Counted from the first letter of the stretch, positions 1,982-63,758 are shown. The stretch: DNA of 64,000 nt from an uncultured delta proteobacterium (GCA_963737905.1 CAVTUQ010000013.1:53349-117348), one strand, 5' to 3'. Numbers and translations: made by a program. Notes: generated by a model not told the origin, from the letters alone.

Positions 1982-2052
1982 CCGTAGTTTCAGCGCTCGG
2001 ATTTCAGCAGATACCGCCACGAGTCTGAAGAGAAAGCGTTCAAGGAGGAGTT

Positions 2053-3099
2053 ATGAGAAAAATCCTTTTGCTTAATAGTGCTGTCTCCTTTGTGTTCGTC
2101 TTCTTTTCGGCGCTTTTGAGTCCGGCTTTAGCCGCGGATTTCTACCAGGGAAAAAACATTCGCTTCATCGTCGGCTTCGCCGCTGGTGGCGGTTATGACG
2201 CCTACGCTCGCACGGTCGGCCGATATATCGGCAGGTATATTCCGGGGAATCCTTCGATCACGGTGGAAAACATGGACGGTGCCGGGAGCGCGATCGCCAC
2301 CAACTACATGTACAACAAGGCTGAAAAGGATGGTTTGAACGTAGGTATTTGGAATTCACAAAACATCTTCAACCAGATGATGGGAGATCCAAGCCTGCGC
2401 ATGGACGGCCGAAAATTCGGCTGGATCGGTTCGCCCAGCAAGGATTCCGTCGCCTGCGCTATCATGGGTTTCGCCGGTCCCAAGACCTTCGCTGAAATCG
2501 TCAAGTCGAATAAACCCTTACGCATGGGCGCCACCAGGGCCGGCAACACGACGCAACTGCCAGAAATGTTAAACCACTGGGCCGGCGCCAAATTTGAAAT
2601 CATCCGGGGCTATACGGGTACTTCAAAAATTCGTCTCGCGATGCGCTCCCATGAGGTGGATGGTGCTTGCTGGACGTGGGATTCCATGAGGTCCACGGCT
2701 CGGTCAATGCTCGATGCCAAGGGCGGCGACCAGCTGGTCCCCTTCATCATCAATGGTAAGTGGGAGGACCCCGAGGTTAAAAACATCGCCCAGTTTAATG
2801 AAGTGATTAAAGATAAGGACAATCTTAACGCGTTTAACACGTGGAACTCAGCTAACGAATTTGCTCGCCCTTTCTCGCTTCCTCCGGGCTCGCCGCCCGA
2901 GGCGCTCAGCATCCTGCGCAAAGCCTTCAAGGCGACGATCGAAGACAAAGACTATATCGCCGATGCCAATAAATCGAAGCTTCCAGTCGACTATATTTCC
3001 GGGGAACAAGCGGATCAGTACGTCAAACAAATTTATTCAATTTCCCCCGAAGTCAAGAAGCGGCTTGAATTTTTGGTGAAGAAACCGAAAACCTCCTAG
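2053..3099 (+). CDS. TctC/Bug-family substrate-binding protein
   Basis: FYQGKNIRFIVGFAAGGGYD, IPGNP, NMDGAG; AGGAGG RBS. Confidence 0.9.
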   Translation: MRKILLLNSAVSFVFVFFSALLSPALAADFYQGKNIRFIVGFAAGGGYDAYARTVGRYIGRYIPGNPSITVENMDGAGSAIATNYMYNKAEKDGLNVGIWNSQNIFNQMMGDPSLRMDGRKFGWIGSPSKDSVACAIMGFAGPKTFAEIVKSNKPLRMGATRAGNTTQLPEMLNHWAGAKFEIIRGYTGTSKIRLAMRSHEVDGACWTWDSMRSTARSMLDAKGGDQLVPFIINGKWEDPEVKNIAQFNEVIKDKDNLNAFNTWNSANEFARPFSLPPGSPPEALSILRKAFKATIEDKDYIADANKSKLPVDYISGEQADQYVKQIYSISPEVKKRLEFLVKKPKTS

Positions 3100-3108
3100 G
3101 AGATATCC

Positions 3109-5226: not shown

Positions 5227-5252
5227 CGGTTTAATGCAGATCGGAGGACGAC

Positions 5253-6296
5253 ATGCGGAAAATTAGCAACGTTTTTGTCTTTCTATTTATGGCTCTAGTT
5301 CTTGCACCTAGCGCGAACGTTAAGGCGGCGGAGTACTATCAGGACAAGTCGATCAGGATCGTCGTCGGTTTCACGTCCGGCGGTTTCTATGACCGTTGGG
5401 CCCGATTGCTGGCGCGCTTCATGCCAAAGTACATTCCCGGCAAACCGGAGATGATTGTGCAGAATATGCCGGGTGCCGGCGGCCTCATCGCCGCGAATTA
5501 CACCTTTAACGTGGCCCAACCCGACGGCCTGAGCGTGGCCTCGCTTTCCTATGGTCTGTATCTCGATCAAATGGTGGGACGCAACGAGGCCAAATATGAC
5601 ATTCGCAAGTTTGGCTGGATCGGCTCCCCGGAAAAAAGCGACGTGCTTCTCTACATGCGCTCTGATGCGCCGTACAAGAGTATCGAGGACATCCGCAAGG
5701 CCAGCACGCCTCCCAAATGCGGCTCCACCGGCACTTCGGGAACGGACTTTATCCTGGCGCGTTTGCTGGAAGACACCCTCGATCTGAAAATCAACACGGT
5801 CATGGGCTATCCCGGTGGTAGTGAAATCGATCTGGCGGTGGAAAAGGGCGAAGTGCAGTGCCGCGGCATGACCTCCGCGCCTTACTTCGGCCGCGAGCCC
5901 TTCATTTCTTGGGCCAAGAGAAACTTCGTCAACGTCTTGGTATTCGGCGGCGTCAAACGCGATCCGCGCATTGCGGATACGCCGACCCTCTATGAGATAT
6001 TCGACAAGGAGAACACCCCAGAAGAAAGCCGACAGGTCGCGGACGTGATCTTGCGCGGCGGCGACTTCGGCCGCCCATTGGTCACTCCTCCCGGGACCCC
6101 TGCTGATCTTATCAAGATATTGCGCGACGCCCATTCGAAAGCCATGAAGGACCCGGCCCTTTTAGACGAAGCCAAGAAAGGCAAAATGGAAGTCGAAGCG
6201 GTGAGCGGAGAAGACCTGGAGAAGCTCGCCAACAAGATGATGAGTATGCCACCGGCCGTAGTAAAACGAGTCAAAAATGTCCTGGCAGCGAAATAA
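5253..6296 (+). CDS. TctC/Bug-family substrate-binding protein
   Basis: YYQDKSIRIVVGFTSGGFYD, NMPGAGG, GYPGGSEIDLA. Confidence 0.9.
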   Translation: MRKISNVFVFLFMALVLAPSANVKAAEYYQDKSIRIVVGFTSGGFYDRWARLLARFMPKYIPGKPEMIVQNMPGAGGLIAANYTFNVAQPDGLSVASLSYGLYLDQMVGRNEAKYDIRKFGWIGSPEKSDVLLYMRSDAPYKSIEDIRKASTPPKCGSTGTSGTDFILARLLEDTLDLKINTVMGYPGGSEIDLAVEKGEVQCRGMTSAPYFGREPFISWAKRNFVNVLVFGGVKRDPRIADTPTLYEIFDKENTPEESRQVADVILRGGDFGRPLVTPPGTPADLIKILRDAHSKAMKDPALLDEAKKGKMEVEAVSGEDLEKLANKMMSMPPAVVKRVKNVLAAK

Positions 6297-6362
6297 CGCC
6301 GCGCCTGGAAACATCGACGGAAAGGTTCTACACAATTCTGAATTTCGATTGGAGGTTTCACC

Positions 6363-7403
6363 GTGAATAAACTTGCACTGATCCTAGCTGCGCTTATCTT
6401 CTACTCGATTCCCGGAGCAGCCCGGCTGTATGCTCAAACACCCTATTATCAAGGCAAAACGATTACCATCGTCGCAGGGACCAAAGCTGGCGATGTTTAC
6501 GATCTCTACGCCCGTATGTTCGCGCAGTTCATGCCCAAATATATCCCGGGAAACCCTAACATCATCGTGCAAAACATGGCAGGCGCAGGTTCTATGATCG
6601 CCGCCAACTACGTCTATAACGTCGCCAATCCCGACGGGCTAACGATCGGCGCGATCTTTCCCGCCCTTTATTTCGATCAAATCATTGGCCGGCAAGAAGT
6701 CAAGTTCGACTGGAGCAAATTCGCCTGGATCGGCAGCCCAGTCACCTCTAATCACCTCCTGTACATGCGTGCGGATACGCCGTACAAGTCGATCGCCGAC
6801 GTCGTCAAGACTTCGACTCCGCCAAAATGCGGCGCGACCGGGACCAGCTCGACCGCCTATTATGTACCGAAGCTGCTGGATGAAGTGATTGAAACGAAGT
6901 TCGACGTCGTCCTCGGTTACCAGTCCGGACAGGATATCGACCTGGCGGTTGAAAGGGGCGAGCTGGTGTGTCGAGCGTTCACCATCACGGCTTTTTTCGC
7001 CCGTGAGCCCTTTATTACGTGGCGCAAAAACAACTTTGTGCGGGTGCTCATGCAAAGCGGCCGCAAGCGGGATCAGAGACTCAAAGAAGTTCCGACCATC
7101 TACGAGCTCATGGATCAATACAAGGCCCCGCCGGCGGGTAGAAACCTGACAACCCTCGTCCTGGCGGCGGGTGACTTCGGCCGGCCCTACGTGCTGCCTC
7201 CCAGTACGCCGGCGGACCGCGTGAAAATTATTCGTGAAGCGTTCCAAAAAACCTTGAGCGACGAAGCGGCTTTGGCCGACGCAAAAAAGAAACGCCTGGA
7301 GATCGACCCCAGTTCCAGCGACGAGCTGGAGAAATTGGCTAAGGAAGTGGTCAGTCAGCCTCCCGATATCGTGGCAAAAATGAAAACGCTGTTGGAAAAG
7401 TAA
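6363..7403 (+). CDS. TctC/Bug-family substrate-binding protein
   Basis: YYQGKTITIV, IPGNPNIIVQNMAGAG, FGRPYVLPP. Confidence 0.9.
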   Translation: MNKLALILAALIFYSIPGAARLYAQTPYYQGKTITIVAGTKAGDVYDLYARMFAQFMPKYIPGNPNIIVQNMAGAGSMIAANYVYNVANPDGLTIGAIFPALYFDQIIGRQEVKFDWSKFAWIGSPVTSNHLLYMRADTPYKSIADVVKTSTPPKCGATGTSSTAYYVPKLLDEVIETKFDVVLGYQSGQDIDLAVERGELVCRAFTITAFFAREPFITWRKNNFVRVLMQSGRKRDQRLKEVPTIYELMDQYKAPPAGRNLTTLVLAAGDFGRPYVLPPSTPADRVKIIREAFQKTLSDEAALADAKKKRLEIDPSSSDELEKLAKEVVSQPPDIVAKMKTLLEK

Positions 7404-7484
7404 GTCAAATCACGAACGAACAACTAAACCTAGGCAGGATGGCACGGAGTTCAACCCTTGGCAGGAGAATAGGAGAGGTATCAG

Positions 7485-8522
7485 ATGCGACAAATTAAAG
7501 AGATAAATATCGGGTTACTGACGGTTCTGATGGTCCTTGGCTTCAGCGGCTTCGTGCAAGCCAATTCTTTGGAGGATTTGGTAGCCGGTGCCAAAAAAGA
7601 GGGGGCCTTAGAGCTCTATGGCCCGTCGACCCTCACGCCTCAAGGCGCCGACACGCTGGCGGCGGCCTTCAATAAAAAGTACGGCCTCAACACGAAGTTG
7701 ACACTTCACCCCTCATTGAACATGACGCGCGACGTGGGAAAACTTGTAGGAATGGCCGCCACCGGAGTGGCTCCCGAGTGGGACACGATGATCGTAACGG
7801 ATGCCCACTATGCGACGCTTTGGCTGAGAAAACTCGTCGAACCCTACGATTACAAAAGCGCGGGGGTTGATCCCCAGGTCATTCATTATGACAGCGGGTC
7901 AATTACCTTCGCCAACCAGATCGTTCTCCCGGCGTACAACAAGAAAACAATGCCCGCCAAAGATGTTCCGACGAAGTGGGAGGACCTGCTTGACCCCAAG
8001 TGGAAAGGCGGCAAGCTCGGAGTATCCACCGCAACCCATCACTTTGCCCGCCTGGCGGTGGGAGCCTGGGGCGAAGAAAAAACCGCAAAGTTCGTAAACG
8101 ACATAGCGAGTCAAGAACCTGTTCTGGGAAGGCTGGCAGAATTATACAACCGCCTGCTTTTGGGTGAGATATCCATTGCGGTAACGCTTACCGACAGCAA
8201 TATTAACGAAGCGAAAAAGACCGGCGCTCCCGTGGTATTTGCTGATGCAATCCAACCGGTGATTTCGCCCGCCTATCAATCAGGCGTCATTAAGGGAGCT
8301 ACACATCCGAGCACCGGCCATCTCTTCTCGATTTTTCTCACTTCGGACGAAGCGCAAGATATTTGGGAAAAGTATAACGGCCAGACCTCGGCATTCGTTC
8401 CCGGCACGACCGCTTATAAATTTCTAAAGGGCAAACAAGCACTCTTCATGAACCAGAATCAAGCCAAGACCGTGGATAAACTGGCGCGACAGTACGGCAA
8501 AATGCTCGGCTTTAACAGGTAA
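7485..8522 (+). CDS. ABC transporter extracellular solute-binding protein (Fe3+/thiamine-like class)
   Basis: Signal peptide, AKKEG, YNK...P.KWEDLLDPKWKG, A.HP...LF..FLTS.EAQ. Confidence 0.8.
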   Translation: MRQIKEINIGLLTVLMVLGFSGFVQANSLEDLVAGAKKEGALELYGPSTLTPQGADTLAAAFNKKYGLNTKLTLHPSLNMTRDVGKLVGMAATGVAPEWDTMIVTDAHYATLWLRKLVEPYDYKSAGVDPQVIHYDSGSITFANQIVLPAYNKKTMPAKDVPTKWEDLLDPKWKGGKLGVSTATHHFARLAVGAWGEEKTAKFVNDIASQEPVLGRLAELYNRLLLGEISIAVTLTDSNINEAKKTGAPVVFADAIQPVISPAYQSGVIKGATHPSTGHLFSIFLTSDEAQDIWEKYNGQTSAFVPGTTAYKFLKGKQALFMNQNQAKTVDKLARQYGKMLGFNR

Positions 8523-31233: not shown

Positions 31234-31583
31234 GGGGGCGATGTGGTTTCGACGGGGGTGGGAAGTCAAAGTGGCATGCCGGGGTTCTGTTATCCCGTTA
31301 AACAAACAGATCTGCAATTTAAACGCAGATAATTTTGAATACGCCCTAGCTGCCTAATCGCAGTTAGCGTCTTACCGGCTTTCTCCCACGGGGTTGGATA
31401 AGACGTCATTTAGTGGGATTGGCTGATTCCTCTGCCGGAGGGGATGAGGCTGAAATCCAAACCGGCTGGCTCCGAGAGACCTTGCCGCTGGGGGCTCAAG
31501 GAGCGAGATCAAAGCATCGGCTAAGCATGTAGTCATATTTGGCGGAAGACCTTCGGACGGGGGTTCGATTCCCCCCGCCTCCA
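31234..31583 (+). ncRNA. ssrA: tmRNA
   Basis: 5' GGGGGCG...TTCGAC; 3' GGTTCGATTCCCCCCGCCTCCA T-arm/acceptor stem; tag ORF 31325-31357 = ADNFEYALAA*. Confidence 0.96.
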
Positions 31584-31994
31584 GTTATCCTAAACCATTT
31601 ATTTTACTAAAGATTTTCGTCCAGTGGCGAGACCACTCTTCTCTTCACTAGAAAAGTCTTCGTCCAGCGTCGGACGATCAAAGGACTATCCTCTAGGTTG
31701 GAGTTTGCCAAAGAATTTTGGCTCGCTCCAAACGAGGCAAGAAAGACTAAGTGCTAGACTGGCTTCCTCGCCGGGATCGCTTTTATTAAGTCTAAAGCGT
31801 AGCATCTCCGCGGGACCAGAATTCTCAGTTAAAGACTAGAGCGGCAGCGCCGAATCGGAATTGCCGGGGAAGTCAGCACTTCAATCTATGCGCTGACTAC
31901 CAGTCGTAAGATGAGTTCCAAGGTGCTAAAATAATTTTTTTTTCGGCGAAACACTTAAGAATGAAAGAACGCTACTCCTCGACAGGAGGCCAGC

Positions 31995-41420: not shown

Positions 41421-41556
41421 ATAGTACGAGGTGACCGGCCGGGGCGGAAAGGGCCGTGAGATCATGCAGCGGGGCCAGTTCACCCGTGTGGTTCCCCCCC
41501 TCCCAAAACGCCCGCACCGCTCTCGGCATAGAGTAGAAGCTCGAAAGGAAGTTCAT

Positions 41557-43059
41557 TTGCCTCATCAGGACCGTCTCAACATCGCCGTGTTCATCGACTT
41601 CGACAACATCGAGATTGGCGTCAAATCGACGCTCGGTGAGAATTTCGACGTCGGGGCCATCCTCGACGCCTTGAAGGAGCGCGGCGAGGTGGTCACCAAG
41701 ATCGCCTACGCCGACTGGACGCGCGCGGGCGAGTACAGCCGCCACCTCACCCAGCACGCCATCCGCCTGGTGCAGCGCAACTTGACGCCCGGCGGCGACA
41801 AGAACGGCGCCGACATCAACCTGGCGCTCGATGCCCTCGAAATGGCCTTCACGCACCCGCACATCAACGCGTACGTGATCGTCGGCGGCGACAGCGACTT
41901 CCTCTCGCTGGTCGAGAAGCTCAAGCAATACGACAAGAAGGTGTTCGTCGTTGGTGGCCGGGCGTTCACGAGCATCATCCTCCAGCGCAACTGCCACGAG
42001 TTCATCGCCTACGAGAACCTGACGGGTGGCCGCCGCTCGGTCGCCAAGGGCGGCCGCCCGTTGGCGCCCGCCACCTCCGCGCCCATCGCGCAGGCGTTCC
42101 CCATCGTGCGGCGCGCGCTGAAGATCCTGTCCGACCGGGAAGTCTCGCCGCAGACCGGCCTGCTCAAGAGCACGCTGCTCCAGCTCGACTCGACCTTCTC
42201 CGAGCGGACCTATGGTGCGTCGTCGTTCCTCGATTTCGTCGAGAAGCTCGCGCAATCGGGTCTCGCCCAGCTCAAGCACACAGGTCGAAGCGTCATGGTC
42301 GAGCTGAACGAGAAGTTCGACGAGAGCGAGTCTTCGACCGCTGCTGCCGTCGCCGCGAGCCGGCCCGTCGCCGTCGCGGTTCGCGCGGCTCCGCCCGAGG
42401 CCGAAACCGAGCCGCGGGTGGTGATGGCCGAGGCCGTGCAGGCGTCCCGGCCCGCCCCGATCGAGGCACCAGTCGTGCCGGCGGGTGATCAGGCCGACGG
42501 GGTCCGCCTGGTGCGCCAGATCCTGACCACTGCCACGGCGGCACGGTGGCCGATGTACCTGCGCAACGTCAAGCAGCTCTTACGGGCCGCCGAGGGCGGC
42601 TTCGACGAGCGCCGATACGGTTTCATGGGGCTGATCGATCTGCTGCGAGCATGTCAGCGCGAGGGCCTCATGCGACTCGAGCGGGATCGTCGAGGAGGCC
42701 TGCGCGTGTTCAAGGGGCCCGCGTTGCAGCAGACCATCCCGTCGCCCGCGATCGCCCCGTCCCAAGAAATGGTGGAAGCCGAGCTCCTGGATACGCAACC
42801 CCTCGATGCCGTGGACCGATTCGACCTGGAAGAGCAGGTCGAGGAAGATCGGTTCAATGTCGAGCCCATGCCGACCGACACGACGGCCGAGCTCCTCGGT
42901 CGCGCCAAGCCGAGACGTCCGCGCACCCGCGTCGCGGCCGCCGCGCCCGTGGCAGCGCGTGTCCCGCGAAAGGCGGCCACGAAGAAGGCCGCGCCGCGCG
43001 CGTCCACGCGGTCGAGGAAGCCGGCCCGATCCGAGGACCCCGGCAAGAATGAGAACTGA
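41557..43059 (+). CDS. NYN-domain (LabA/DUF88) protein with OST-HTH/LOTUS domains
   Basis: IAVFIDFDN, AYADW, KNGADI.LALDA, GGDSDF, FSERTYG.SSF, FDERRYGF; AAAGGA RBS plus TTG; visibly higher GC. Confidence 0.9.
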   Translation: MPHQDRLNIAVFIDFDNIEIGVKSTLGENFDVGAILDALKERGEVVTKIAYADWTRAGEYSRHLTQHAIRLVQRNLTPGGDKNGADINLALDALEMAFTHPHINAYVIVGGDSDFLSLVEKLKQYDKKVFVVGGRAFTSIILQRNCHEFIAYENLTGGRRSVAKGGRPLAPATSAPIAQAFPIVRRALKILSDREVSPQTGLLKSTLLQLDSTFSERTYGASSFLDFVEKLAQSGLAQLKHTGRSVMVELNEKFDESESSTAAAVAASRPVAVAVRAAPPEAETEPRVVMAEAVQASRPAPIEAPVVPAGDQADGVRLVRQILTTATAARWPMYLRNVKQLLRAAEGGFDERRYGFMGLIDLLRACQREGLMRLERDRRGGLRVFKGPALQQTIPSPAIAPSQEMVEAELLDTQPLDAVDRFDLEEQVEEDRFNVEPMPTDTTAELLGRAKPRRPRTRVAAAAPVAARVPRKAATKKAAPRASTRSRKPARSEDPGKNEN

Positions 43060-50886: not shown

Positions 50887-51741
50887 ATGCCGGATTTTCG
50901 TTCTCGCGACGTGATGACTAGGCGATTTCGCACCCATTATACCGAGTGCGGTGACAACGGGCCTGCGCTCGTGTTGTGCGACGGTGGCGGGCCGGGCTCT
51001 TCCGGCGAAGCTGGCTTTGCGCAGTTGATGCCGGCTCTGGCAACAAAGTTTCAGGTCTACGCTCTCGACAGTGTCGGCGGCTTCGGCGAAACGGACCCCT
51101 ATTATCCGGCCAGCGAAGGAGTGCAAAGCCGCGTCGATCAGCTCGAAGCCTTTATGGATGTGCTCTGTATACACAAAGCTGTGGTGGGGGGAAACTCTCA
51201 AGGCGCCTGGGTTGCGGCGAAGTACGCGCTGCAGTATCCCGATCGGGTCGACAAGCTCGTGCTGGTAGCGAGCAATACCATCTCCGCAGCGATGGGACTG
51301 GAAAGCCCCGTAACCGAGGGCATGAAAGCGATCCGTGCTTATAACGGCAGCGAAGAGTCCATGCGCGCGTTCTTGAAAACCATCGTTTGGAACAAAAACC
51401 TAATCACCGATGACTTGGTTAAGCTGCGCAACGACTGCGCCAACCGTCCCGGCGCGGAAGCGGCCAGAAAGATTTTTCAGGAGGGCCAGCAAAGACTGAC
51501 CAAGGATCCTAATCTGCGCCTAAAGTTCGACATGCGTCACACCCTGCCCAAGCTTACTATTCCGGCCATTTGCGTTTGGGGCGAGGATGACGGCTTCGCC
51601 CCGGTGGCGCTCGGCAAACAGTTGGAAACAATGTTGCCCAACATCAAGTTTCACTATGTTTCCAATGCCGGCCACCAAGTGCAGAACGATCAGCCGCAAC
51701 TAGTTGCCAAGCTGATGATGGATTTCCTCGCCGCTACGTAA
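50887..51741 (+). CDS. Meta-cleavage product hydrolase (MhpC/BphD-like)
   Basis: GGGPG, GNSQG nucleophile, WGEDD, AGHQVQ; located in the meta-cleavage operon. Confidence 0.75.
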   Translation: MPDFRSRDVMTRRFRTHYTECGDNGPALVLCDGGGPGSSGEAGFAQLMPALATKFQVYALDSVGGFGETDPYYPASEGVQSRVDQLEAFMDVLCIHKAVVGGNSQGAWVAAKYALQYPDRVDKLVLVASNTISAAMGLESPVTEGMKAIRAYNGSEESMRAFLKTIVWNKNLITDDLVKLRNDCANRPGAEAARKIFQEGQQRLTKDPNLRLKFDMRHTLPKLTIPAICVWGEDDGFAPVALGKQLETMLPNIKFHYVSNAGHQVQNDQPQLVAKLMMDFLAAT

Positions 51742-51764
51742 TTCCCCCGTTCATCCCGCCCGAA

Positions 51765-51869
51765 AATCTCCCCTTCCCCTCCCTTCGACTTCGCTGCTTT
51801 TCCAAAGAGGGGTTAGAGATCCCACGGAGAAAATTTCCCCTTTGAAAAAGGCGGACGAAAGGGGGATTT
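51765..51869. repeat. REP-like composite inverted repeat between convergent genes
   Basis: aaatctcccct...ccaaagagggg...cccctttgaaaaagg...gggggattt. Confidence 0.55.
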
Positions 51870-51915
51870 GAGTTCGGCTTCAACTGTTGGGACACTAGGT
51901 CGGTTACCCAGCGTC

Positions 51916-56554: not shown

Positions 56555-57370
56555 ATGAGAGCGCGATTGTTAACAATCACGGGACTGGTGATATTATCTT
56601 TACTCAGCGCGAATTCCGAGGCGGATCAACCGTCAAGCAAAGCTTCAAACGTAGTTCCGGTTTATCAACCCAAGCATTATCCTTTTGACGGGGGCGAGAG
56701 ATTGGTTTATCACGCCAGTTGGAATGGGCTGTTCTCCGTGGCAACCGCCACGGTTCATACAACGTCGGAATGGGTCGATGGCCAAAAATTTTACAACGTT
56801 CGCGTCGAAGCGAGTTCATCAAAGCTCTTGGACTTCATCTGGAAAATGCGGGACAAGATCACATCAAAAATAAATGCAAATGGCCTTACGCCGACGCATT
56901 TCACGTTCAGCCAAAGAGAAAATCGCAAAGTCATTGATACCGTCGCGAGTTTTGACCGGACGACGAAAACATGGTCGGTGCATCGAGATGAGCGAGAGAA
57001 GGTTAAACGCTATCAGTTCGATGAACCGAACAATACGCTCGACGTGATCACGGCCGTTTACCTTGCCAGAAGCCTAGACTTCAAAGTGGGCGACCATCTT
57101 TATTTTCATATCTTCGGCGGAAAGTACCGCTATCTGTTGGATTTACAAGTGGAATGTAAGGAAACTATCCGACTCAAGTCCGGCAATATCGAAGCGTTTA
57201 AGTTCGTTCCGAGGATTGAGGATGTTCTGCAAGAGGGATACGCAACAAGATTGAATGAAGCGGCGGTTTGGATATCCGCCGATGAGCGTCGCCTGCCGGT
57301 CATGCTCAAAGGTAAGATTATTTTCGGCAGCGTCTACATTGAAATCTCGGATGATAGCGCTCCGATCTAG
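56555..57370 (+). CDS. DUF3108-domain exported protein
   Basis: Signal peptide, PF..GERL.Y..SW, D.ITA.Y.AR, WISADERRLPV....I.FGSV. Confidence 0.75.
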   Translation: MRARLLTITGLVILSLLSANSEADQPSSKASNVVPVYQPKHYPFDGGERLVYHASWNGLFSVATATVHTTSEWVDGQKFYNVRVEASSSKLLDFIWKMRDKITSKINANGLTPTHFTFSQRENRKVIDTVASFDRTTKTWSVHRDEREKVKRYQFDEPNNTLDVITAVYLARSLDFKVGDHLYFHIFGGKYRYLLDLQVECKETIRLKSGNIEAFKFVPRIEDVLQEGYATRLNEAAVWISADERRLPVMLKGKIIFGSVYIEISDDSAPI

Positions 57371-57556
57371 ACATTTTCGGAAAAGAACTCCCGATCTTCA
57401 TAACTCTGCCCGTTTCAACACTATTCCCGCCCTTCGCGCTATTAAAATGAACCCGGTCCTAAAGAAAAAATTCGCGGTCTTCCCTGTCCTGGATTGGATG
57501 ACAGAATATCTACTGGGCACCTCGTGTTTCAGCCCACACGCTGTACTTTTCCCCTT

Positions 57557-58522
57557 TTAGCTCGCCGGTATCTCTGGTTGCCGTGAATCATAGCGAACCC
57601 AACGACTAAATGCGCTGATTTCTTTGTCAAAGATAAATTTGAGCACGAGTCGCGTATAGGACTGGTAGGCAAATAAGGTCCGGTAAAATTCAGGAGCCAT
57701 GCGGTAAAGCTGCGGCAGTCTGCTCCACGCGACCATGGGAAAGTCATGATGCTCATTATGAAATCCCATATTGAACATCACCCAATTGAGCGGGCCATAA
57801 TACGAATAGGTCTCTTGCTGTTTGCCCATAACATCATAGTGCTCTTGAATCCAGCGGCCGCCTAACGGATGCAACCCCAAAGCAAAGAATGTCGAGAGGA
57901 GCAAATACATCAGTCCACCCCACCCTACATACAACCAGAGCCAGTAACTCACCCCTAACTGCAAGGCGATATTGGTAACCGCCCACGGGTCGACAAACGA
58001 TTGGCCCGGAACCTTTAGTGGCCGCAAGGCCTGCGAAACAGACAACAAAGCGAGCCACAGCGACTTCCGCAGAGGACCATGACCAATCAGCCGGCCTTCA
58101 AATTGGCTCACCACGTCCGGATCCATCGTTATTTTATTTAGGTGTTGGTGATGCAAAAGATGATACTTTCTGAAACTCATAGCGCTGGGGACAATTAAGG
58201 CAAAATCACAACTGAGGCCGGCAAGCTTGTTTAACACTGGTATTGCGAAAATTAAGTTGTGCGTTGCCTCATGCATTAACACATACAACCCATGATTGAG
58301 AACCGCGCCAGCAAGATAAGCCACAGGCAAAATCACGTACCACGGCTGATCGCAAAGCAGCCAGGCCACTGTCCATTGCAGAGCGACCAGCCCGACAATG
58401 AGGAGGGCTGACAGAGGATAGGGGCCAAACAATACCTTCACCTCGGGATAATGTTTAATGATATCTTTACGGCGTTGGGTGTGAACCTGCTCAGACTGCC
58501 CGTTGATAGTGAAGGAATCCAT
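57557..58522 (-). CDS. Sphingolipid delta-4 desaturase/C4-hydroxylase (DEGS/DES-like) membrane desaturase
   Basis: N-term H..RRKDIIKHYPEVKVL; His boxes HEATH, HLLHH, HNEHH; LGLHP, ETYSYYGPLN..FN.G.HNEHHDFP. Confidence 0.85.
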   Translation of the reverse strand: MDSFTINGQSEQVHTQRRKDIIKHYPEVKVLFGPYPLSALLIVGLVALQWTVAWLLCDQPWYVILPVAYLAGAVLNHGLYVLMHEATHNLIFAIPVLNKLAGLSCDFALIVPSAMSFRKYHLLHHQHLNKITMDPDVVSQFEGRLIGHGPLRKSLWLALLSVSQALRPLKVPGQSFVDPWAVTNIALQLGVSYWLWLYVGWGGLMYLLLSTFFALGLHPLGGRWIQEHYDVMGKQQETYSYYGPLNWVMFNMGFHNEHHDFPMVAWSRLPQLYRMAPEFYRTLFAYQSYTRLVLKFIFDKEISAFSRWVRYDSRQPEIPAS

Positions 58523-58668
58523 AGGAATAGGAATTTTATACCCCTTTTTTCTAAGCGGAGATATAGCGCCGGTGCGCCGAGCCCGTCAAGCACAGCCGAG
58601 AACGCTATAGAAAAGGTTAAAAAGTAGCGTATTTTATCGAGGATCTTCAGGCAGGTAAACGGAACGCT

Positions 58669-59664
58669 TCATGATCGGCGTTCTTTAACCTCTTTTAGCT
58701 TGAGTCCCGGCTGCACAAAATCAGGGAAAATCGGGCGGACATCTTGCGCGCCGGTTCCTTGCGGTGAAAGCCGGCACCACTGATCGGGATAGCGCCGCAC
58801 CATGTCTTCCAAACGACGAGTAAACAGGGCCAGATTTGTAGCAACGTCCTCCTGCAGGTCTCCTGTTCTGACGAGATCGATTTCAGGGCTGACACGAAGG
58901 GTCAGACGATCCTCAGCGTCCCGCGTGACACACATAGGAACAACTGCCGCGCCGGCGCGTAAAGCCAGGGTCACAGGACCACGGCGAACATAGACAGCGG
59001 AACCCAAAAACTCTGTGTTTACCTTCCCGGATTTAAACACATCCGGGAGGACAACAACCGCTTCGTTCCGCCTTAATGCGCCAAGGATTTGTCGAGCCGC
59101 CTGCCTGCGCGGCTTAGCCGATATCGTTTTAACTCCAGCCTTCGCTCTGTAGCTGTCCAGTAAACGGGCCAATCTTTGGTCTGGCGGGTGCTTGACTACA
59201 ATGCTGAAGGGGTGTCCCGCCGCGGCAAGACGGGGAGCAATCATAGTAAAATTTCCTAAATGAGCGCCGAGCGCAATCACCCCCTTGCCCTTTTCCAAAG
59301 CCCGCTGCAAATACTCCTCGCCCTCAACAGCAACGCTGGCACATATTGCGTCCCTGGAGGTATAAAGCGTGGAGGCAGTCTCATAAAGTCCCTGGACAAA
59401 ATTCCTCCAGGCCAAACGAGCCACAGTCTTTCTCTTCTCCACCGATAAGAATTGGTCGCTCAAAGCCATGGAGACATTCTTTTCCATCAGTTTTCGGTAT
59501 GGCCATAAAATAGCGAAAGTCAGATGGACGGTCGCCGAGGTCATGAGAACGAGCAGGCGGTGAGGAATTCTCGGAACGAGGAAGATAATTGCCCTCAGCG
59601 AATATTCCGCTGCGCGGTACAGTAACCAATCGAGAAATTTCTTGGAGGAAAAACGGTCCTTCAT
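58669..59664 (-). CDS. LpxL/HtrB-like lysophospholipid acyltransferase family protein
   Basis: VEGEEYL..AL.KGKGVI.L.AHLGNF, EFLG, GP..LALRAGA.VVP, VRRYPDQW. Confidence 0.85.
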   Translation of the reverse strand: MKDRFSSKKFLDWLLYRAAEYSLRAIIFLVPRIPHRLLVLMTSATVHLTFAILWPYRKLMEKNVSMALSDQFLSVEKRKTVARLAWRNFVQGLYETASTLYTSRDAICASVAVEGEEYLQRALEKGKGVIALGAHLGNFTMIAPRLAAAGHPFSIVVKHPPDQRLARLLDSYRAKAGVKTISAKPRRQAARQILGALRRNEAVVVLPDVFKSGKVNTEFLGSAVYVRRGPVTLALRAGAAVVPMCVTRDAEDRLTLRVSPEIDLVRTGDLQEDVATNLALFTRRLEDMVRRYPDQWCRLSPQGTGAQDVRPIFPDFVQPGLKLKEVKERRS

Positions 59665-60310
59665 CCCAGCCGGACTATCTGTGAGCCTTTCGACACTTTT
59701 GACACATTTGACGATTGTTCGTCAACGGCACGACGCGTGATTTCTAAACAAATGGATCGAATTATCGATGGGGCGAGACATTGTGTGCCTGGTGAGCGCG
59801 AGGATATCTGACGCAAATCTTTTATGACCACCGAATGGAATTGGGATGCGTCTGTCTCAATATTTCCAGCGCCGCCCAAAATTGGGGCCTTACTTGGGTC
59901 TATCGTTTACCAGGTTTACTTGAACTCGGATTCCGCAGTTGAAGGTGAAGCAAAGAGCAAGGCGCAAGCCTTCCGCAGCGACGCAATAGGCCTGTGCCTC
60001 TGAGCCAAGTTGCGAGCAGCGGTGCAGTGAGCGGGGTCCTCAACCGTTGCGAACGGAGTGACGGGTAACAAAAATGACTTTGAAACACTACGGTTCTGTG
60101 CGTTCGCTGCTCCAGGCTCACGCCCCGCTCAGCGTAGATCATAACGTTAACTGCGGAATCCGGGTTGAATGAAGATGAAGACGATGTTACAAGGGAAAAA
60201 TTTAGAGGATGTGGAGGTTGTAATTTCGCTCATCGGCAGGAGCTGTGGGTTGTAATCCCGGTTGCGTCTCAGCGCTTCCCGGCTTCGGTTTCCCCGAGTA
60301 AGCTCCTGCC

Positions 60311-61453
60311 GTGCGTACCACTGCCGAATCCGTAAGAATCGTCCCGGTAAGTGACTCGCGGGACCTGCGCCGGTTCATTCGCGTGCCTTGGTCGGTCTAT
60401 GCCGACGACCCAACATGGGTCCCGCATTTGTTGCTAGAGCGACGCGAGCAGTTTTCTCCCCGCAACCCATACTTCGCGCACGCGCGCTGCTGTTTTTGGC
60501 TTGCCTATCGCGGGACCAGGCCAGTCGGTCGGATCAGCGCCCAGATTGATGAATTACACGAAGAGCGGTATCGGGATGCCACCGGATTTTTCGGCTTCCT
60601 CGAGGCCGAGAATGAGGCGGGGACGTTTCACGGACTGTTGAGTACGGCTGAAGTCTGGCTGCGTGACCAGGGCATGTTGCGGATCCGCGGGCCGTTCAAC
60701 TTTTCCATCAACCAGGAGTGCGGGCTTCTTGTGGACGGTTACGACACGCCCCCAATGATTATGATGGGCCACTCCCGCCCGTACTATGCCGCTCGGCTAA
60801 CAGCCGAGGGATACCAGGGCGTAAAGGACTTGTTGGCCTATCGTCTCTCCACCCATTTCACTCCCCCCGAGTTCATGAAGGCCGTTTTGAACAAAGCCGC
60901 TGGCCATGCGCGGGTCAGGCCGCTGCGCAAATCACAGTTGAATGAGGACCTCGAAATTATCAAGGACATTTTCGAGGATGCCTGGTCCACGAACTGGGGA
61001 TTCATTCCATTCAGCAAGGACGAGGTTCGGCATCTAGGCTACAATTTGCGACTGCTAGTTGATGACGATGCCGTGCAAATTGCGGAGGTGGACGGGGTGC
61101 CGGCCGCGATGATCGTAGCCTTGCCGAACTTAAATGAAGTGATACGAGACCTTCAGGGACGTTTGCTTCCATTTGGCTGGCTCAAGCTCTTGTGGCGGCT
61201 GAAAGTGAAATCTCCGAAAACGGCTCGCGTTGTGCTGATGGGAGTGCGCAAACGTTTTCAACGAAGCCCGCTTGGAGCCGCGCTGGCTTTCCTCCTTATC
61301 GATGCCGTGCGCGGCTATGGAATCAGGCGCGGAGTTCAGGAAGTTGAGCTGTCCTGGATTCTGGAAGATAACATGCCGATGCGGAATATGCTCACGATGG
61401 TCGGAGGCGTCCCGTACAAACGCTACCGTATTTATGAAAAGGCATTCAGATGA
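60311..61453 (+). CDS. YghO-like double-GNAT N-acyltransferase; candidate bacterial ceramide synthase (bCerS-like)
   Basis: FIRVPW.VY.DDP.WVP.L, GRISAQID, GFFGF.E, GPFNFSINQECGLLVDG.DTPP..MM.H..PYY, AWS.NWGF.P, ELSWILEDN..M, YKRYRIYEK. Confidence 0.75.
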   Translation: MRTTAESVRIVPVSDSRDLRRFIRVPWSVYADDPTWVPHLLLERREQFSPRNPYFAHARCCFWLAYRGTRPVGRISAQIDELHEERYRDATGFFGFLEAENEAGTFHGLLSTAEVWLRDQGMLRIRGPFNFSINQECGLLVDGYDTPPMIMMGHSRPYYAARLTAEGYQGVKDLLAYRLSTHFTPPEFMKAVLNKAAGHARVRPLRKSQLNEDLEIIKDIFEDAWSTNWGFIPFSKDEVRHLGYNLRLLVDDDAVQIAEVDGVPAAMIVALPNLNEVIRDLQGRLLPFGWLKLLWRLKVKSPKTARVVLMGVRKRFQRSPLGAALAFLLIDAVRGYGIRRGVQEVELSWILEDNMPMRNMLTMVGGVPYKRYRIYEKAFR

Positions 61454-61524: not shown

Positions 61525-62265
61525 ATGGATGCTTCCAAGACAGCTGACGTACGTGTCAACGATACTTTTTTAGCACCGCTGGAACGACCGGCGCTGCAAT
61601 GGCTATGCAAACACATGCCTGCCTGGATGACTCCCGACATACTCACTGTGATTGGCTTGATTGGCGGGGTGGTCATGGCGATTGCGTACTGGTTGTGCAA
61701 CGTGAATAAAAATTTTTTATGGATCGTGGATCTTGGCCTTGTGATCAACTGGTTCGGCGATAGTCTCGATGGCTCTTTGGCACGATACCGCGGAATCGAA
61801 CGATTCAAGTACGGCTATTTTGTCGATCATACTGTCGATATCACGACGCAAACCATCGTCCTCCTCGGCCTAGGAGTGTCTCCGTTTGTCCACTTCAATT
61901 TCGCGCTGCTAGCGCTCGTCGGTTATTTGCACCTTGGGATTTTAACGTATATAGACACCGCCGTATCCGGAGTGTACAAAATTTCTTACGGCAAAATCGG
62001 CCCCACAGAAGTTCGCGTGTTCGTCATCGGCCTGAATGCCATATTCTATTTCGCCAGTAATCCGATGATTCATATGGGGAGGGTGAGTATTTTCTCTTTT
62101 GATGCTATCGTGTTGTGTGTTGCCATAGTCTTTTTTCTCCATTTCCTGGGCTTTACCTTGCGGAGGATGATGGAACTTAATGTTCAAGATCCTCCCAAAG
62201 GGAACCCCTTGCAGTCGCAATCTTATCAAGCTGGCATCTCAAGAGAAAGAAGTAGTGTGACATGA
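61525..62265 (+). CDS. CDP-alcohol phosphatidyltransferase family protein
   Basis: TPD.LT..G, DSLDGSLAR...YGYFVDHTVD (DxxDGxxAR...GxxxDxxxD), GPTEVR. Confidence 0.92.
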   Translation: MDASKTADVRVNDTFLAPLERPALQWLCKHMPAWMTPDILTVIGLIGGVVMAIAYWLCNVNKNFLWIVDLGLVINWFGDSLDGSLARYRGIERFKYGYFVDHTVDITTQTIVLLGLGVSPFVHFNFALLALVGYLHLGILTYIDTAVSGVYKISYGKIGPTEVRVFVIGLNAIFYFASNPMIHMGRVSIFSFDAIVLCVAIVFFLHFLGFTLRRMMELNVQDPPKGNPLQSQSYQAGISRERSSVT

Positions 62266-63758
62266 GCGTTTCTAAGATGGGAGTGGCAGGTATCACAAGG
62301 GCCGTTCTTTTGACCGCGAATACGGCCCCTACCAAGGCAACGTATGATGCTGTGTACGGCGGGGAACCCCTGTTGACCCGCGCTCTGGTTGCTCTGTCGA
62401 AGGCAGGGATACGGTCCGTATGGATAATTTGTCATGAGGGAGACCGTGAAAAGATTGCTGCGCTAATCGGGAAGGCACGAACCCGCCTTGCGCTGGATTA
62501 TGATATTTGTCCGATCCGTACCGGTGAGACACTTTCTGAGGTCGTGTCCCGTATCGTCGAACAGTGGGATACGTCTTTTTTGCTGTTCGAAACCAATAAA
62601 GTTGTCCATCCTACATTTTTTGCGCAGATGGCCCAATTTGCCGCATCACCAAAGCCGGTGCTCGTTGTCTATAAACATGTATGGTTGAATGGAGGGAAGG
62701 TCGCTTTCGAGAGTGCATTCCCGGACAAATTCAAAGTGATATTTGCCCACCCGGAGTCCTTTACCAAGATTGCGCTCGATAACAGCGTTTTCCAGAGCAA
62801 CACCTTCGATGTCGGACCTACTCATCCGGTAGAAGTCTCTCCCACCCTCTCCAATGGCATCTTCAGTACCGATGTGGTTGTTTGTCATCGCGTTCATTTG
62901 CAACGCCTTTCATGCAGCAATGTTGCTGATCTGATCCACCACTGGCACAAGCAGCAACTCCTCAGGCTGGGGTTCGTCGAAAATGCTTGGTGGCTGCCGG
63001 TTACTGGAAGAGAATCGCAAGAGGATCGGACTGAATTTTTTTGGCGTATTGCCTTCAAAGAAATTAGTGGGGAATTTTCCAAACTGGTCAACTCCCACCT
63101 CTCCAAACCCTTGACGTTCTTGTTTGTGCGTTTTGGCTTCAGCCCAAACGCCATTAGCATCCTGGAACTCAGCTTATTCCTCGTCTCCTCTGCTTTTCTG
63201 CTCATACCGCAGTACTGGGCAATGTTGGTGTTTGCCGTTGTGTGGCAGTTTTCTGCCGGGGTGTTAGACCGGTGTGATGGTGAGGTCGCACGCATCCGCA
63301 ATTATGAATCGGAAGCCGGAGCACGGTTCGATATGCTCATTGACGACCTCCGCTTTGCGCTTCCGTTTGTATTTTTGACCATCGCGTGTTATCGCGAATC
63401 GCATCGCGATCTGGGGTATCTTGTCGTCGCGGTGGCAACGGCCGCGTGGTATAGCACTGCCGTCGTTTATCACAATCGCTTTTTGCGGCGAGCCGGATAC
63501 GTGAGCGTCCAAACTATGGGCGTCGACTTTTTAAAAACGCAGGCGGAGACCCGTTGGTTCGCTGTGTTTCGGAGAATTCAGCCGTTTACGAAAGGCGACA
63601 TTCGTACGTTTTATATCTTTCTGGCAACCTTCCTGGGCAACAAATCGGTCCTCTTCTGGATGCTGGTTGCCTATGCGTGGCCGTTGGGCGCGTCGTATTT
63701 TTTTACCGTTATAAAATTTCGTCAGCCGTCCGCCAGCGCGCCAGCCAGCATCGCCTGA
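62262..63758 (+). CDS. Fusion of a degenerate nucleotidyltransferase-like domain and a CDP-alcohol phosphotransferase
   Basis: N-term YGGEPLLTRAL.AL.KAGIRSVWII; C-term SPN.IS, LDRCDGEVAR...GARFDMLID. Confidence 0.8.
   Translation: MSVSKMGVAGITRAVLLTANTAPTKATYDAVYGGEPLLTRALVALSKAGIRSVWIICHEGDREKIAALIGKARTRLALDYDICPIRTGETLSEVVSRIVEQWDTSFLLFETNKVVHPTFFAQMAQFAASPKPVLVVYKHVWLNGGKVAFESAFPDKFKVIFAHPESFTKIALDNSVFQSNTFDVGPTHPVEVSPTLSNGIFSTDVVVCHRVHLQRLSCSNVADLIHHWHKQQLLRLGFVENAWWLPVTGRESQEDRTEFFWRIAFKEISGEFSKLVNSHLSKPLTFLFVRFGFSPNAISILELSLFLVSSAFLLIPQYWAMLVFAVVWQFSAGVLDRCDGEVARIRNYESEAGARFDMLIDDLRFALPFVFLTIACYRESHRDLGYLVVAVATAAWYSTAVVYHNRFLRRAGYVSVQTMGVDFLKTQAETRWFAVFRRIQPFTKGDIRTFYIFLATFLGNKSVLFWMLVAYAWPLGASYFFTVIKFRQPSASAPASIA

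What the first reader, a model, noticed from the sequence alone, without database searches (positions are those of the whole stretch)
57557..58522. Eukaryote-like DEGS sphingolipid desaturase in a bacterial operon
Seen: besides three His boxes, the protein has the DEGS-specific N-terminal motif (H..RR..I...YPE.K.L) and the C-terminal ETYSYYGPLN..FN.G.HNEHHDFP block, which I recognise from animal and fungal dihydroceramide desaturases rather than generic bacterial fatty acid desaturases. Inference: it may inform the origin or transfer of eukaryotic DEGS, and could act as a desaturase or a C4-hydroxylase.
Basis: partly seen in the sequence, partly recalled or inferred. Interest (0 to 1): 0.7.

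Follow-up and report, generated by a model that had tools for sequence, protein, structure and literature searches.

The report
Bacterial DEGS-type sphingolipid desaturase gene
An uncultured soil bacterium carries an intact relative of the animal enzyme that puts the double bond (or a 4-hydroxyl) into ceramide. It sits beside the bacterium's likely ceramide synthase, but such genes are common in other bacteria, so this is a good test case, not a surprise.

Summary
The ORF at 57557-58522 (minus strand, 321 aa) scores above Pfam's cut-offs for both Lipid_DES and FA_desaturase. It has all three His boxes and is 37-39% identical, end to end, to animal DES1/DES2.

"Eukaryote-like rather than bacterial" is misleading. 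Thousands of bacterial and metagenomic proteins share this architecture. In trees, this protein sits inside a bacterial clade, apart from the clade that holds the animal enzymes.

Several results support a sphingolipid substrate:
- The genome has an Spt-ACP-reductase-acyl-ACP-synthetase cluster on another contig.
- The 380-aa GNAT gene 1.8 kb away is the probable bacterial ceramide synthase. Its homologues lie next to Spt and/or the reductase in 9 of 20 loci examined.
- In 7 of 76 unrelated metagenome loci, the DEGS-like gene lies beside Spt, reductase or GNAT genes; chance predicts about 0.4.

The gene is under purifying selection (dN/dS 0.12-0.23). It was the only match among 401 sampled genomes of its phylum. 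One close relative has replaced it with a P450 plus a sulfotransferase.

The sequence does not show whether it desaturates or hydroxylates. Ten literature searches found no characterised bacterial member. The scan had already noted the same gene type in five other genomes.

Verdict: a new member of a known, annotated but biochemically untested bacterial family.

The parts
57557..58522 (-). DEGS-type membrane di-iron sphingolipid C4 desaturase/hydroxylase candidate, 321 aa (P0001)
   Evidence: Pfam Lipid_DES and FA_desaturase, both over cut-off. His boxes at 84, 121 and 255. 37-39% identity to animal DES1/DES2. AF2 model pLDDT 88.7, pTM 0.86; the best-scoring folds include FtAlkB, a membrane alkane monooxygenase. 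dN/dS 0.12-0.23 against 7 relatives.
58523..58668 (-). 146-nt spacer between the acyltransferase and DEGS genes
   Evidence: No terminator-like site. One 9-of-12 promoter-like match, with such matches at chance level over the scanned stretch. In one RNA-library contig from a relative, 132 nt of this spacer are absent and the two genes nearly abut (record 11).
58669..59664 (-). Lip_A_acyltrans / lysophospholipid-acyltransferase-family gene, 331 aa, directly upstream on the same strand
   Evidence: Pfam PF03279 E 3.1e-28. No NCBIfam equivalog reaches its cut-off (best: lauroyl acyltransferase 101 bits vs 248). The pair is conserved in L010, L011, L045, L046 and L047. A 33% homologue lies 5 kb from the GNAT gene in L026.
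59920..60164 (.). Polymorphic insertion of about 240 bp in the divergent intergenic region
   Evidence: Absent from L010, L011 and L014 and skipped in contigs of runs X16 and X18. A 78% copy lies elsewhere in G431 and a 67% copy on C1 of the own genome.
60311..61453 (+). GNAT-type N-acyltransferase, 380 aa: probable bacterial ceramide synthase (bCerS), divergent from the acyltransferase-DEGS pair
   Evidence: Pfam Acetyltransf_1 25.5 bits (cut-off 20.7). Single copy in the genome; homologues in 128 of 401 phylum genomes. Homologues lie within 10 kb of Spt and/or the CerR-like reductase in 9 of 20 loci fetched and in L121.
61525..62265 (+). CDP-alcohol phosphotransferase, 246 aa
   Evidence: Pfam PF01066 E 3e-7. 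Closest solved relative is choline/ethanolamine phosphotransferase 1, 8gyw, E 2.4e-8. Weak PIP-synthase-type NCBIfam hits, below cut-off.
62262..63758 (+). 498-aa protein with a C-terminal CDP-alcohol phosphotransferase domain and an unassigned N-terminal half
   Evidence: PF01066 E 5.1e-10. In the 547-aa form in L010, NTP_transferase scores only E 0.021. PDB relatives are AF2299 and IPCT-DIPPS. In L010, L014 and L048 the next gene is a 775-850-aa Mito_fiss_Elm1-family protein; the window ends at the contig end.

Best explanation
The gene encodes a membrane-bound, O2-dependent di-iron oxidase of the DEGS (dihydroceramide desaturase) family. It most likely acts at C4(-C5) of the sphingoid base of a dihydroceramide-type lipid that the bacterium makes itself. 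The predicted route starts with the Spt-ACP-acyl-ACP-synthetase-reductase cluster on contig C2 together with the GNAT-type ceramide synthase candidate next door, which would build the dihydroceramide. The DEGS-type enzyme would then introduce a 4,5 double bond (ceramide proper) and/or a 4-hydroxyl (phytoceramide). The neighbouring CDP-alcohol phosphotransferases, ELM1-family proteins and LPLAT-family acyltransferase probably decorate the same lipid. Shown here: family membership, catalytic residues, purifying selection, the genome's Spt cluster, and gene-neighbourhood links. Inferred: the substrate, the regiochemistry, the desaturase-versus-hydroxylase outcome, the electron donor, and co-transcription.
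For: Family: both Pfam domains are over cut-off. There are three His boxes, plus conserved H218 and H228; the alignment of the eukaryote-containing set likewise has two conserved His between boxes 2 and 3. The protein aligns collinearly at 37-39% with animal DES1/DES2. In the tree it is split (100) from ordinary FA desaturases of the same bacterial family. The confident model (pLDDT 88.7) has the membrane alkane monooxygenase FtAlkB (8sbb, 8f6t) among its four best fold matches.

Substrate supply: Spt scores 627.6 bits on NF047599 (cut-off 500) and is flanked by ACP, an NAD-epimerase-family reductase and an AMP-binding enzyme.

Linkage: the single-copy GNAT-380 gene 1.8 kb away has homologues adjacent to Spt and/or the reductase in 9 of 20 loci. 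Outside the window's lineage, 7 of 76 metagenome DEGS loci have Spt, reductase or GNAT in view, against about 0.43 expected by chance. Examples are the same-strand run AMP-binding-reductase-ACP-Spt-DEGS in L054 and DEGS-Spt-GNAT-reductase in L121. In L048 (81% identical) the DEGS start overlaps the stop of the preceding ELM1-family gene, inside an operon with both CDP-alcohol transferases, glycosyltransferases and an ABC exporter 54% identical to the one next to Spt.

Function retained: dN/dS is 0.12-0.23. The genome has two COX1 genes, so the organism meets O2. Contigs from 4 of 4 soil metatranscriptome libraries laid (3 studies) cover the gene at up to 98-100% identity.
Against: Ten full-text searches found no characterised bacterial member of the family. 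The key bacterial ceramide paper (PMC8891067) is not held. Most DEGS-like loci show no sphingolipid gene in view: 69 of 76, and 24 of the 27 with at least 8 kb of flank. No cytochrome b5, recalled as the eukaryotic electron donor, was found in this 87.5%-complete MAG, so electron supply is unexplained. The gene is dispensable: it is cut after 66 codons in L014 and was not found in the two same-genus genomes G401 and G423 (93% and 89% complete). The identity of GNAT-380 with the experimentally defined bCerS rests on neighbourhood only. Presence in RNA libraries does not prove transcription, because DNA can be present in them. The MAG has 6.7% contamination, although both loci also occur in the 7-contig genome G431.
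Confidence: 0.7

Rival explanations
1. The substrate is the same, but the enzyme is mainly a C4-hydroxylase. It would make phytoceramide-type (trihydroxy) bases rather than the 4,5 double bond, as the bifunctional animal DEGS2 can.
For: The protein is no closer to DES1 than to DES2 (37% vs 39%). A 52%-identical homologue in Halobacteriovorax marinus SJ is named 'putative hydroxylase' by its source, and JGI names many homologues '4-desaturase/C4-monooxygenase'. From recall, not from a call: Bacteriovorax sphingophosphonolipids contain trihydroxy bases.
Against: Source names are automatic annotations. Nothing in the sequence was shown here to discriminate the two outcomes. Both animal types sit together in a clade remote from the bacterial clade, so the DES1/DES2 split cannot be projected onto bacteria.
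Confidence: 0.3
2. The enzyme does not act on a sphingoid base. It would desaturate or hydroxylate another chain, such as an acyl chain of the phospho- or glycolipid made by the neighbouring CDP-alcohol transferase, ELM1 and LPLAT genes, or of lipid A.
For: Its immediate upstream partner belongs to the lipid A secondary acyltransferase / LPLAT family. The genome makes lipid A, since LpxC is present. ELM1-family genes recur beside DEGS in L013, L048 and L057. 69 of 76 other DEGS loci show no sphingolipid gene.
Against: The Lipid_DES N-terminal domain and full-length collinearity with dihydroceramide desaturases. Direct operon linkage to Spt in L054, L076 and L121. The ceramide synthase candidate belongs to the same divergent gene pair here.
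Confidence: 0.12
3. The gene is a recently acquired passenger that is decaying or unexpressed in this lineage.
For: It was the only DEGS-type match among 401 phylum genomes (PF08557 over cut-off in G000 only). Within the family sample of 51, only G000 and G431 carry it, and the same-genus genomes lack it. It is truncated in L014. The flank downstream of it varies between relatives.
Against: The frame is intact and all catalytic His residues are present. dN/dS is 0.12-0.23, including against the 81%-identical L048 and L012. The gene is present in contigs of 4 of 4 RNA libraries laid.
Confidence: 0.04

Closest known systems
Eukaryotic dihydroceramide delta4-desaturase DES1/DEGS1 (for example Drosophila ifc)
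   Same: Lipid_DES plus FA_desaturase architecture, about 320 aa, the same three His boxes and the same extra conserved His pair, and the ETYSYYGPLN...HNEHHDFP block. 37% identity over 303 residues to Drosophila busckii ifc.
   Different: It lies in a separate, bacterial clade. The host genome shows no cytochrome b5. The ceramide it would act on is made by the non-homologous bacterial route (GNAT-type synthase, epimerase-family reductase). Activity is untested.
Vertebrate DEGS2/DES2, the bifunctional delta4-desaturase / C4-monooxygenase
   Same: Same architecture; 39% identity over 308 residues to Amia calva DEGS2.
   Different: The DES1/DES2 split occurred within animals and does not predict which reaction the bacterial enzyme performs.
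Uncharacterised bacterial DEGS-like proteins (Halobacteriovorax marinus, Oligoflexia, Kiloniellales, Geminicoccaceae, Roseibium, Steroidobacteraceae and many MAGs)
   Same: 50-56% identity, both Pfam domains, and the same 18-row clade. Some are linked to Spt clusters (L054 groups with the Kiloniellales protein).
   Different: This copy sits beside the ceramide synthase candidate and a CDP-alcohol transferase / ELM1 locus rather than beside Spt. It is an isolated occurrence in its phylum sample.
Solved membrane proteins with the closest folds: subunits of the chloroplast Ycf2/Orf2971-FtsHi motor complex (8xks_K, 8xqw_M) and the alkane monooxygenase FtAlkB (8sbb, 8f6t)
   Same: Best Foldseek matches (TMq 0.61, 0.57, 0.48, 0.43).
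   Different: Only 15-18% identity. No DEGS structure was found by sequence (0 hits at E <= 0.01). Substrates differ.

Membership tests
DEGS / sphingolipid delta4-desaturase family (Pfam Lipid_DES + FA_desaturase) | N-terminal Lipid_DES domain | tested here: met
   PF08557, 35.4 bits vs cut-off 23, residues 10-36. The same hit appears in the genome-wide scan, with none in the 14 control genomes.
DEGS / sphingolipid delta4-desaturase family (Pfam Lipid_DES + FA_desaturase) | Membrane FA_desaturase domain with three His boxes HX3H, HX2HH, HX2HH | tested here: met
   PF00487, 99.7 bits. HEATH 84, HLLHH 121, HNEHH 255. All are invariant in 20 bacterial homologues, and the corresponding box His are invariant in the 28-row eukaryote-containing alignment.
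DEGS / sphingolipid delta4-desaturase family (Pfam Lipid_DES + FA_desaturase) | Full-length collinear similarity to characterised animal enzymes, and separation from other FA desaturases | tested here: met
   37% / 39% identity to ifc / DEGS2 over more than 300 residues. A 100-supported split from the outgroup FA desaturases L018 and L019.
DEGS / sphingolipid delta4-desaturase family (Pfam Lipid_DES + FA_desaturase) | Acts on the C4-C5 of the sphingoid base of dihydroceramide | not testable with these tools
   Only indirect evidence: the Spt cluster in the genome, the bCerS candidate next door, and Spt linkage in 7 of 76 other loci.
DEGS / sphingolipid delta4-desaturase family (Pfam Lipid_DES + FA_desaturase) | Electrons from cytochrome b5 (the eukaryotic system; this feature is recalled, not from a call) | tested here: inconclusive
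   PF00173 was not found in the 87.5%-complete MAG. A different donor is likely but was not identified.
Bacterial ceramide synthase bCerS (for the neighbour at 60311-61453) | GNAT-type N-acyltransferase domain | tested here: met
   Acetyltransf_1, 25.5 bits vs cut-off 20.7. Atlas neighbours are Acetyltransf_1 / Acetyltransf_6 clusters.
Bacterial ceramide synthase bCerS (for the neighbour at 60311-61453) | Genomic clustering with Spt and the ceramide reductase CerR (clustering as described in passages of PMC11334938) | tested here: met
   Homologues lie within 10 kb of Spt and/or the CerR-like gene in 9 of 20 loci; 11 of 20 show neither. The same holds in L121.
Bacterial ceramide synthase bCerS (for the neighbour at 60311-61453) | Sequence homology to the experimentally characterised Caulobacter enzyme | not testable with these tools
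No NCBIfam model matched.
Bacterial serine palmitoyltransferase (for L007 1865-3046) | Equivalog-level HMM score | tested here: met
   NF047599, 627.6 bits vs cut-off 500. The BioF, Kbl and HemA models all score below their cut-offs.

The most novel reading that the evidence does not exclude
The stretch from 57.5 kb to the contig end (continued in L010 and L048) may be a sphingolipid-tailoring island that builds a eukaryote-style complex sphingolipid by a route not yet described in bacteria. The ceramide synthase candidate would supply ceramide. A Kennedy-type pair of CDP-alcohol phosphotransferases would add a phospho-alcohol head group directly to ceramide; one resembles CEPT1, and the other has a possible cytidylyltransferase-like N-terminal half. 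ELM1-family proteins and glycosyltransferases would extend the head group, the LPLAT would add an acyl chain, and the DEGS-type enzyme would create a true sphingosine (or phytosphingosine) backbone. The position behind the LPLAT gene would then be an exchangeable 'oxidative tailoring slot', because one relative (L014) carries a P450 plus a sulfotransferase there instead of DEGS.
Probability: 0.2. Interest if true: 0.65.

Novelty: new member of a known kind. Interest (0 to 1): 0.35.

Why it matters
Textbook accounts treat the 4,5 double bond of ceramide as a eukaryotic trait. The two bacterial sphingolipid models among the 14 control genomes, Caulobacter and Bacteroides, lack this gene (0 of 14 control genomes matched), and my ten literature searches found no enzymatic study of any bacterial member. 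A tested bacterial DEGS would show whether bacteria make sphingosine-type or phytosphingosine-type ceramides. It would also show which electron donor replaces cytochrome b5, and it would give an anchor for rooting the eukaryotic family. This locus is a convenient candidate because the gene sits beside the probable ceramide synthase and head-group genes. It is one of thousands of such genes, however, and the scan has already reported the same kind in five other genomes. It adds context, not a new kind of thing.

Tried and rejected
- PDB sequence search with the protein: 0 hits at E <= 0.01.
- NCBIfam: only far-below-cut-off hits to CrtW, GntB and CrtR.
- Inositol-lipid reading of the CDP-alcohol transferases: no myo-inositol-phosphate synthase (PF01658) in the MAG, which is 87.5% complete, so this is not proof of absence. 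I dropped the inositol reading as unsupported.
- Promoter/terminator scan of 57200-60400: counts were at or below the shuffle means, so it is uninformative.
- Recent transfer from a eukaryote: rejected, because the nearest relatives are all bacterial or metagenomic at 50-82% identity, versus 37-39% to animals.
- Mis-binned contig: considered because of the 6.7% contamination. I rejected it as the main explanation, because both the DEGS locus and the Spt cluster recur in the 7-contig genome G431 at 93-97% DNA identity and contig GC content matches.
- Conserved synteny beyond the close lineage: L012 (82% identical) has an unrelated neighbourhood.
- 'dATP pyrophosphohydrolase' + ceramide literature search, to tie GNAT-380 to the published bCerS: 0 papers.
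- RNA-library contigs: they cannot give strand, ends or level. Parts of the acyltransferase gene had no cover in some runs, which is not evidence of anything.
- Fungal, plant and most protist DEGS sequences were not obtained. The named hits of the profile search were animals plus one oomycete, so the deep eukaryote-bacteria relationship was not resolved.
- Supplements of papers were not available.

Full report
WHAT IS THERE. The finding's coordinates delimit one ORF exactly: 57557-58522, minus strand, ATG start, 321 aa. Pfam gives FA_desaturase (99.7 bits, cut-off 29.7, residues 61-288) and Lipid_DES (35.4 bits, cut-off 23, residues 10-36). The three histidine boxes of membrane di-iron desaturases are present: HEATH 84, HLLHH 121 and HNEHH 255. 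Its C-terminal motif is off by one residue as written, and matches at 237-262 once corrected. NCBIfam has no model that reaches its cut-off, and no solved structure is detectable by sequence. An AlphaFold2 model built on 20 homologues is confident (pLDDT 88.7, pTM 0.86). Its best fold matches are two subunits of chloroplast Ycf2/Orf2971-FtsHi complexes and the alkane monooxygenase AlkB (TMq 0.43-0.61). The protein aligns end to end with Drosophila busckii ifc/DES1 (37%) and Amia calva DEGS2 (39%).

HOW COMMON IT IS. The two-domain architecture is not rare in bacteria.
- Of 8000 scored candidates, 7033 were homologues. Of the 120 listed, 117 carry both domains. Source names include 'sphingolipid delta-4 desaturase' (JGI) and 'fatty acid desaturase' from Halobacteriovorax marinus, Oligoflexia, Geminicoccaceae, Steroidobacteraceae, Roseibium and Kiloniellales.
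- A full HMMER pass over 1.84 billion cluster representatives gave 2525 hits at E <= 1e-3 and 341 at E <= 1e-30.
- The scan's own notes record the same kind of gene in five other genomes.

PHYLOGENY. A FastTree of 145 rows split at the base (support 99) into two sets. A 70-row set holds the window protein and every bacterium-named row. A 75-row set holds the two rows that could be named, both animals. A profile of that second set retrieved, among its named hits, only eukaryotes: animal DES1/DES2 and one oomycete. An IQ-TREE (quick search, LG+G4) of 71 rows, rooted on two ordinary FA desaturases from the same bacterial family, put all 9 named eukaryote rows in one 33-row clade (SH-aLRT 98). The window protein fell in an 18-row clade (96) with the named Bdellovibrionota-type, alpha- and gammaproteobacterial proteins. 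The remaining first-set lineages form an unresolved base. This gene is therefore a bacterial-clade member, not a eukaryote-derived one, and the direction of the ancient bacteria-eukaryote relationship is unresolved here.

THE GENOME AND ITS SPHINGOLIPID GENES. The window is the last 64 kb of contig C13 of a 6.7-Mb MAG with 46 contigs, 87.5% complete and 6.7% contaminated. Contig C2 carries a run of five same-strand genes:
- an AMP-binding enzyme;
- an NAD-epimerase-family reductase;
- an acyl carrier protein;
- a serine palmitoyltransferase that passes the NCBIfam equivalog cut-off (627.6 vs 500);
- an MsbA-like ABC exporter.

The genome also has LpxC and two haem-copper oxidase genes. It shows no cytochrome b5 and no inositol-phosphate synthase.

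THE NEIGHBOURHOOD. Upstream on the same strand, 146 nt away, lies a Lip_A_acyltrans/LPLAT-family gene (58669-59664). Three genes run divergently from it: a 380-aa GNAT protein (60311-61453), a 246-aa CDP-alcohol phosphotransferase, and a 498-aa protein with a C-terminal CDP-alcohol phosphotransferase domain. The contig ends there. In the near-identical locus L010, the next gene is a 775-aa Mito_fiss_Elm1-family protein.

The GNAT protein is single-copy here and has homologues in 128 of 401 sampled genomes of the phylum. I fetched 20 of those loci. In 9 of them the homologue lies within 10 kb of Spt and/or the reductase, in four cases also with the ACP and the AMP-binding enzyme; 11 show neither. 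This fits the published description of Spt, bCerS and CerR as frequently clustered (passages of PMC11334938). I therefore read the GNAT protein as the bacterial ceramide synthase. The caveat is that I could not compare it with the characterised Caulobacter protein. On this reading the DEGS-type gene lies 1.8 kb from the organism's only ceramide synthase candidate.

LINKAGE ELSEWHERE. Of the 80 metagenome loci, four belong to the window's own lineage: three keep the LPLAT-DEGS order, and the fourth holds only a truncated DEGS. Among the other 76, seven have sphingolipid genes in view:
- L054: AMP-binding-reductase-ACP-Spt-DEGS on one strand.
- L121: DEGS-Spt-GNAT-reductase.
- L076 and L058: Spt adjacent or 1.5 kb away.
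- L055 and L059: ACP-Spt 8 kb away.
- L117: reductase adjacent.

For 572 kb of total flank, chance predicts about 0.43 such loci. Most loci (69 of 76, and 24 of the 27 with at least 8 kb of flank) show none. That matches the situation here, where Spt is on another contig.

A second recurrent neighbour is the ELM1 family, seen in three places:
- L048 (81% identical): the DEGS start overlaps the stop of a 377-aa ELM1-family gene. The operon also holds both CDP-alcohol transferases, an 850-aa ELM1-family gene, glycosyltransferases and an ABC exporter 54% identical to the Spt-linked one.
- L013 (76%): immediately upstream.
- L057 (55%): divergent.

L012 (82%) has an unrelated neighbourhood.

DISTRIBUTION AND HISTORY. 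In a 401-genome sample of the phylum (255 genera), only the window's genome has the gene: PF08557 over cut-off in 1 of 401, and protein match at E <= 1e-10 in 1 of 401. In a 51-genome sample of the family, only G000 and G431 have it (98% identity). Three further hits at 28-31% identity are ordinary FA desaturases in the two cases I checked. The two same-genus genomes lack it at protein and DNA level, although one of them shares the Spt cluster at 95% DNA identity. These genomes are incomplete samples, so 'not found' is the proper wording.

Close relatives L010, L011 and L014 share the GNAT-to-LPLAT segment at 88-97% DNA identity, and synteny breaks just behind the DEGS gene. In L014 the gene is cut after codon 66, and a cytochrome P450 and a sulfotransferase occupy the site. 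Against seven relatives, dN/dS is 0.12-0.23. Together this looks like a horizontally acquired, selectively maintained, but exchangeable tailoring gene.

EXPRESSION. Four soil metatranscriptome libraries from three studies all hold contigs covering the gene, some with 0-6 differences per 120-375 nt. One contig from a relative bridges the acyltransferase and DEGS genes with 132 nt of the spacer missing. Contigs from RNA libraries prove neither transcription nor a single transcript, so this is a weak positive.

MECHANISM. The most likely reading (0.7) is an O2-dependent di-iron enzyme acting at C4 of the sphingoid base of the cell's own dihydroceramide. The choice between desaturation and hydroxylation is open; I give about 0.3 to a mainly hydroxylating enzyme. 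The electron donor is unknown. A non-sphingolipid substrate (0.12) and a decaying passenger gene (0.04) are the other rivals.

LITERATURE. Ten full-text searches, plus passages read in PMC11334938, PMC9246714, PMC6148460, PMC11765627, PMC11087976, PMC12872458, PMC8237579, PMC9278070 and a 2026 bioRxiv preprint, turned up no experimental study of a bacterial DEGS. Subscription journals, the unheld PMC8891067 and all supplements were out of reach, so this is not proof that none exists.

One of the five handles (G440) was flagged unpublished.

VERDICT. This is a real gene, correctly recognised, with a probably correct general function. It is a new member of a large, already annotated but untested bacterial branch of the DEGS family. 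Its neighbourhood is its main added value.

Noticed in passing
L014:10001-13507: In one close relative the DEGS gene stops after 66 codons. A cytochrome P450 (466 aa, opposite strand) and a sulfotransferase (348 aa) occupy the site, while all other genes of the locus are intact. This may be an exchangeable oxidative-tailoring slot.
   Followed up: partly
window 61525-63758; L010:2641-6645; L048:651-6837: Two CDP-alcohol phosphotransferases are followed by one or two Mito_fiss_Elm1-family genes. The closest solved relative of one is CEPT1; of the other, AF2299 / IPCT-DIPPS. They travel with the ceramide synthase candidate and DEGS, and could form a ceramide head-group pathway. The genome shows no inositol-phosphate synthase.
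   Followed up: partly
window 59920-60164: An insertion of about 240 bp lies in the divergent promoter region between the acyltransferase-DEGS pair and the GNAT gene. It is absent from three relatives and from contigs of two runs. A 78% copy lies elsewhere in G431 and a 67% copy on contig C1 of the own genome. It may be a small mobile repeat.
   Followed up: partly
window 929-8522: Five tandem ORFs of 345-350 aa surround a fused TctA-TctB gene (3109-5226). One of the two I scanned is a TctC-type tripartite tricarboxylate receptor; the other gave no Pfam hit at E <= 1e-5.
   Followed up: partly
window 51733-51890: A stretch of about 150 nt matches dozens of places in the same-genus genomes G401 and G423 at 70-87% identity, but is single-copy in the window's own genome. 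This suggests a dispersed repeat family in relatives.
   Followed up: partly
window 31234-31586 (+): A full-length tmRNA gene (Rfam RF00023, 196.6 bits).
   Followed up: no
window 41431-43059 (+): A 542-aa protein combines a NYN ribonuclease domain with an OST-HTH/LOTUS domain.
   Followed up: no
L024:2211-3391; L010:11254-12178; G000 C9:12372-13449 and C5:59883-60855: Several genes are split by frameshifts or an in-frame stop: Spt in G431, DUF3108 in L010, and two aminotransferase-family genes in the own genome. These are probably assembly indels in MAGs rather than biology.
   Followed up: no
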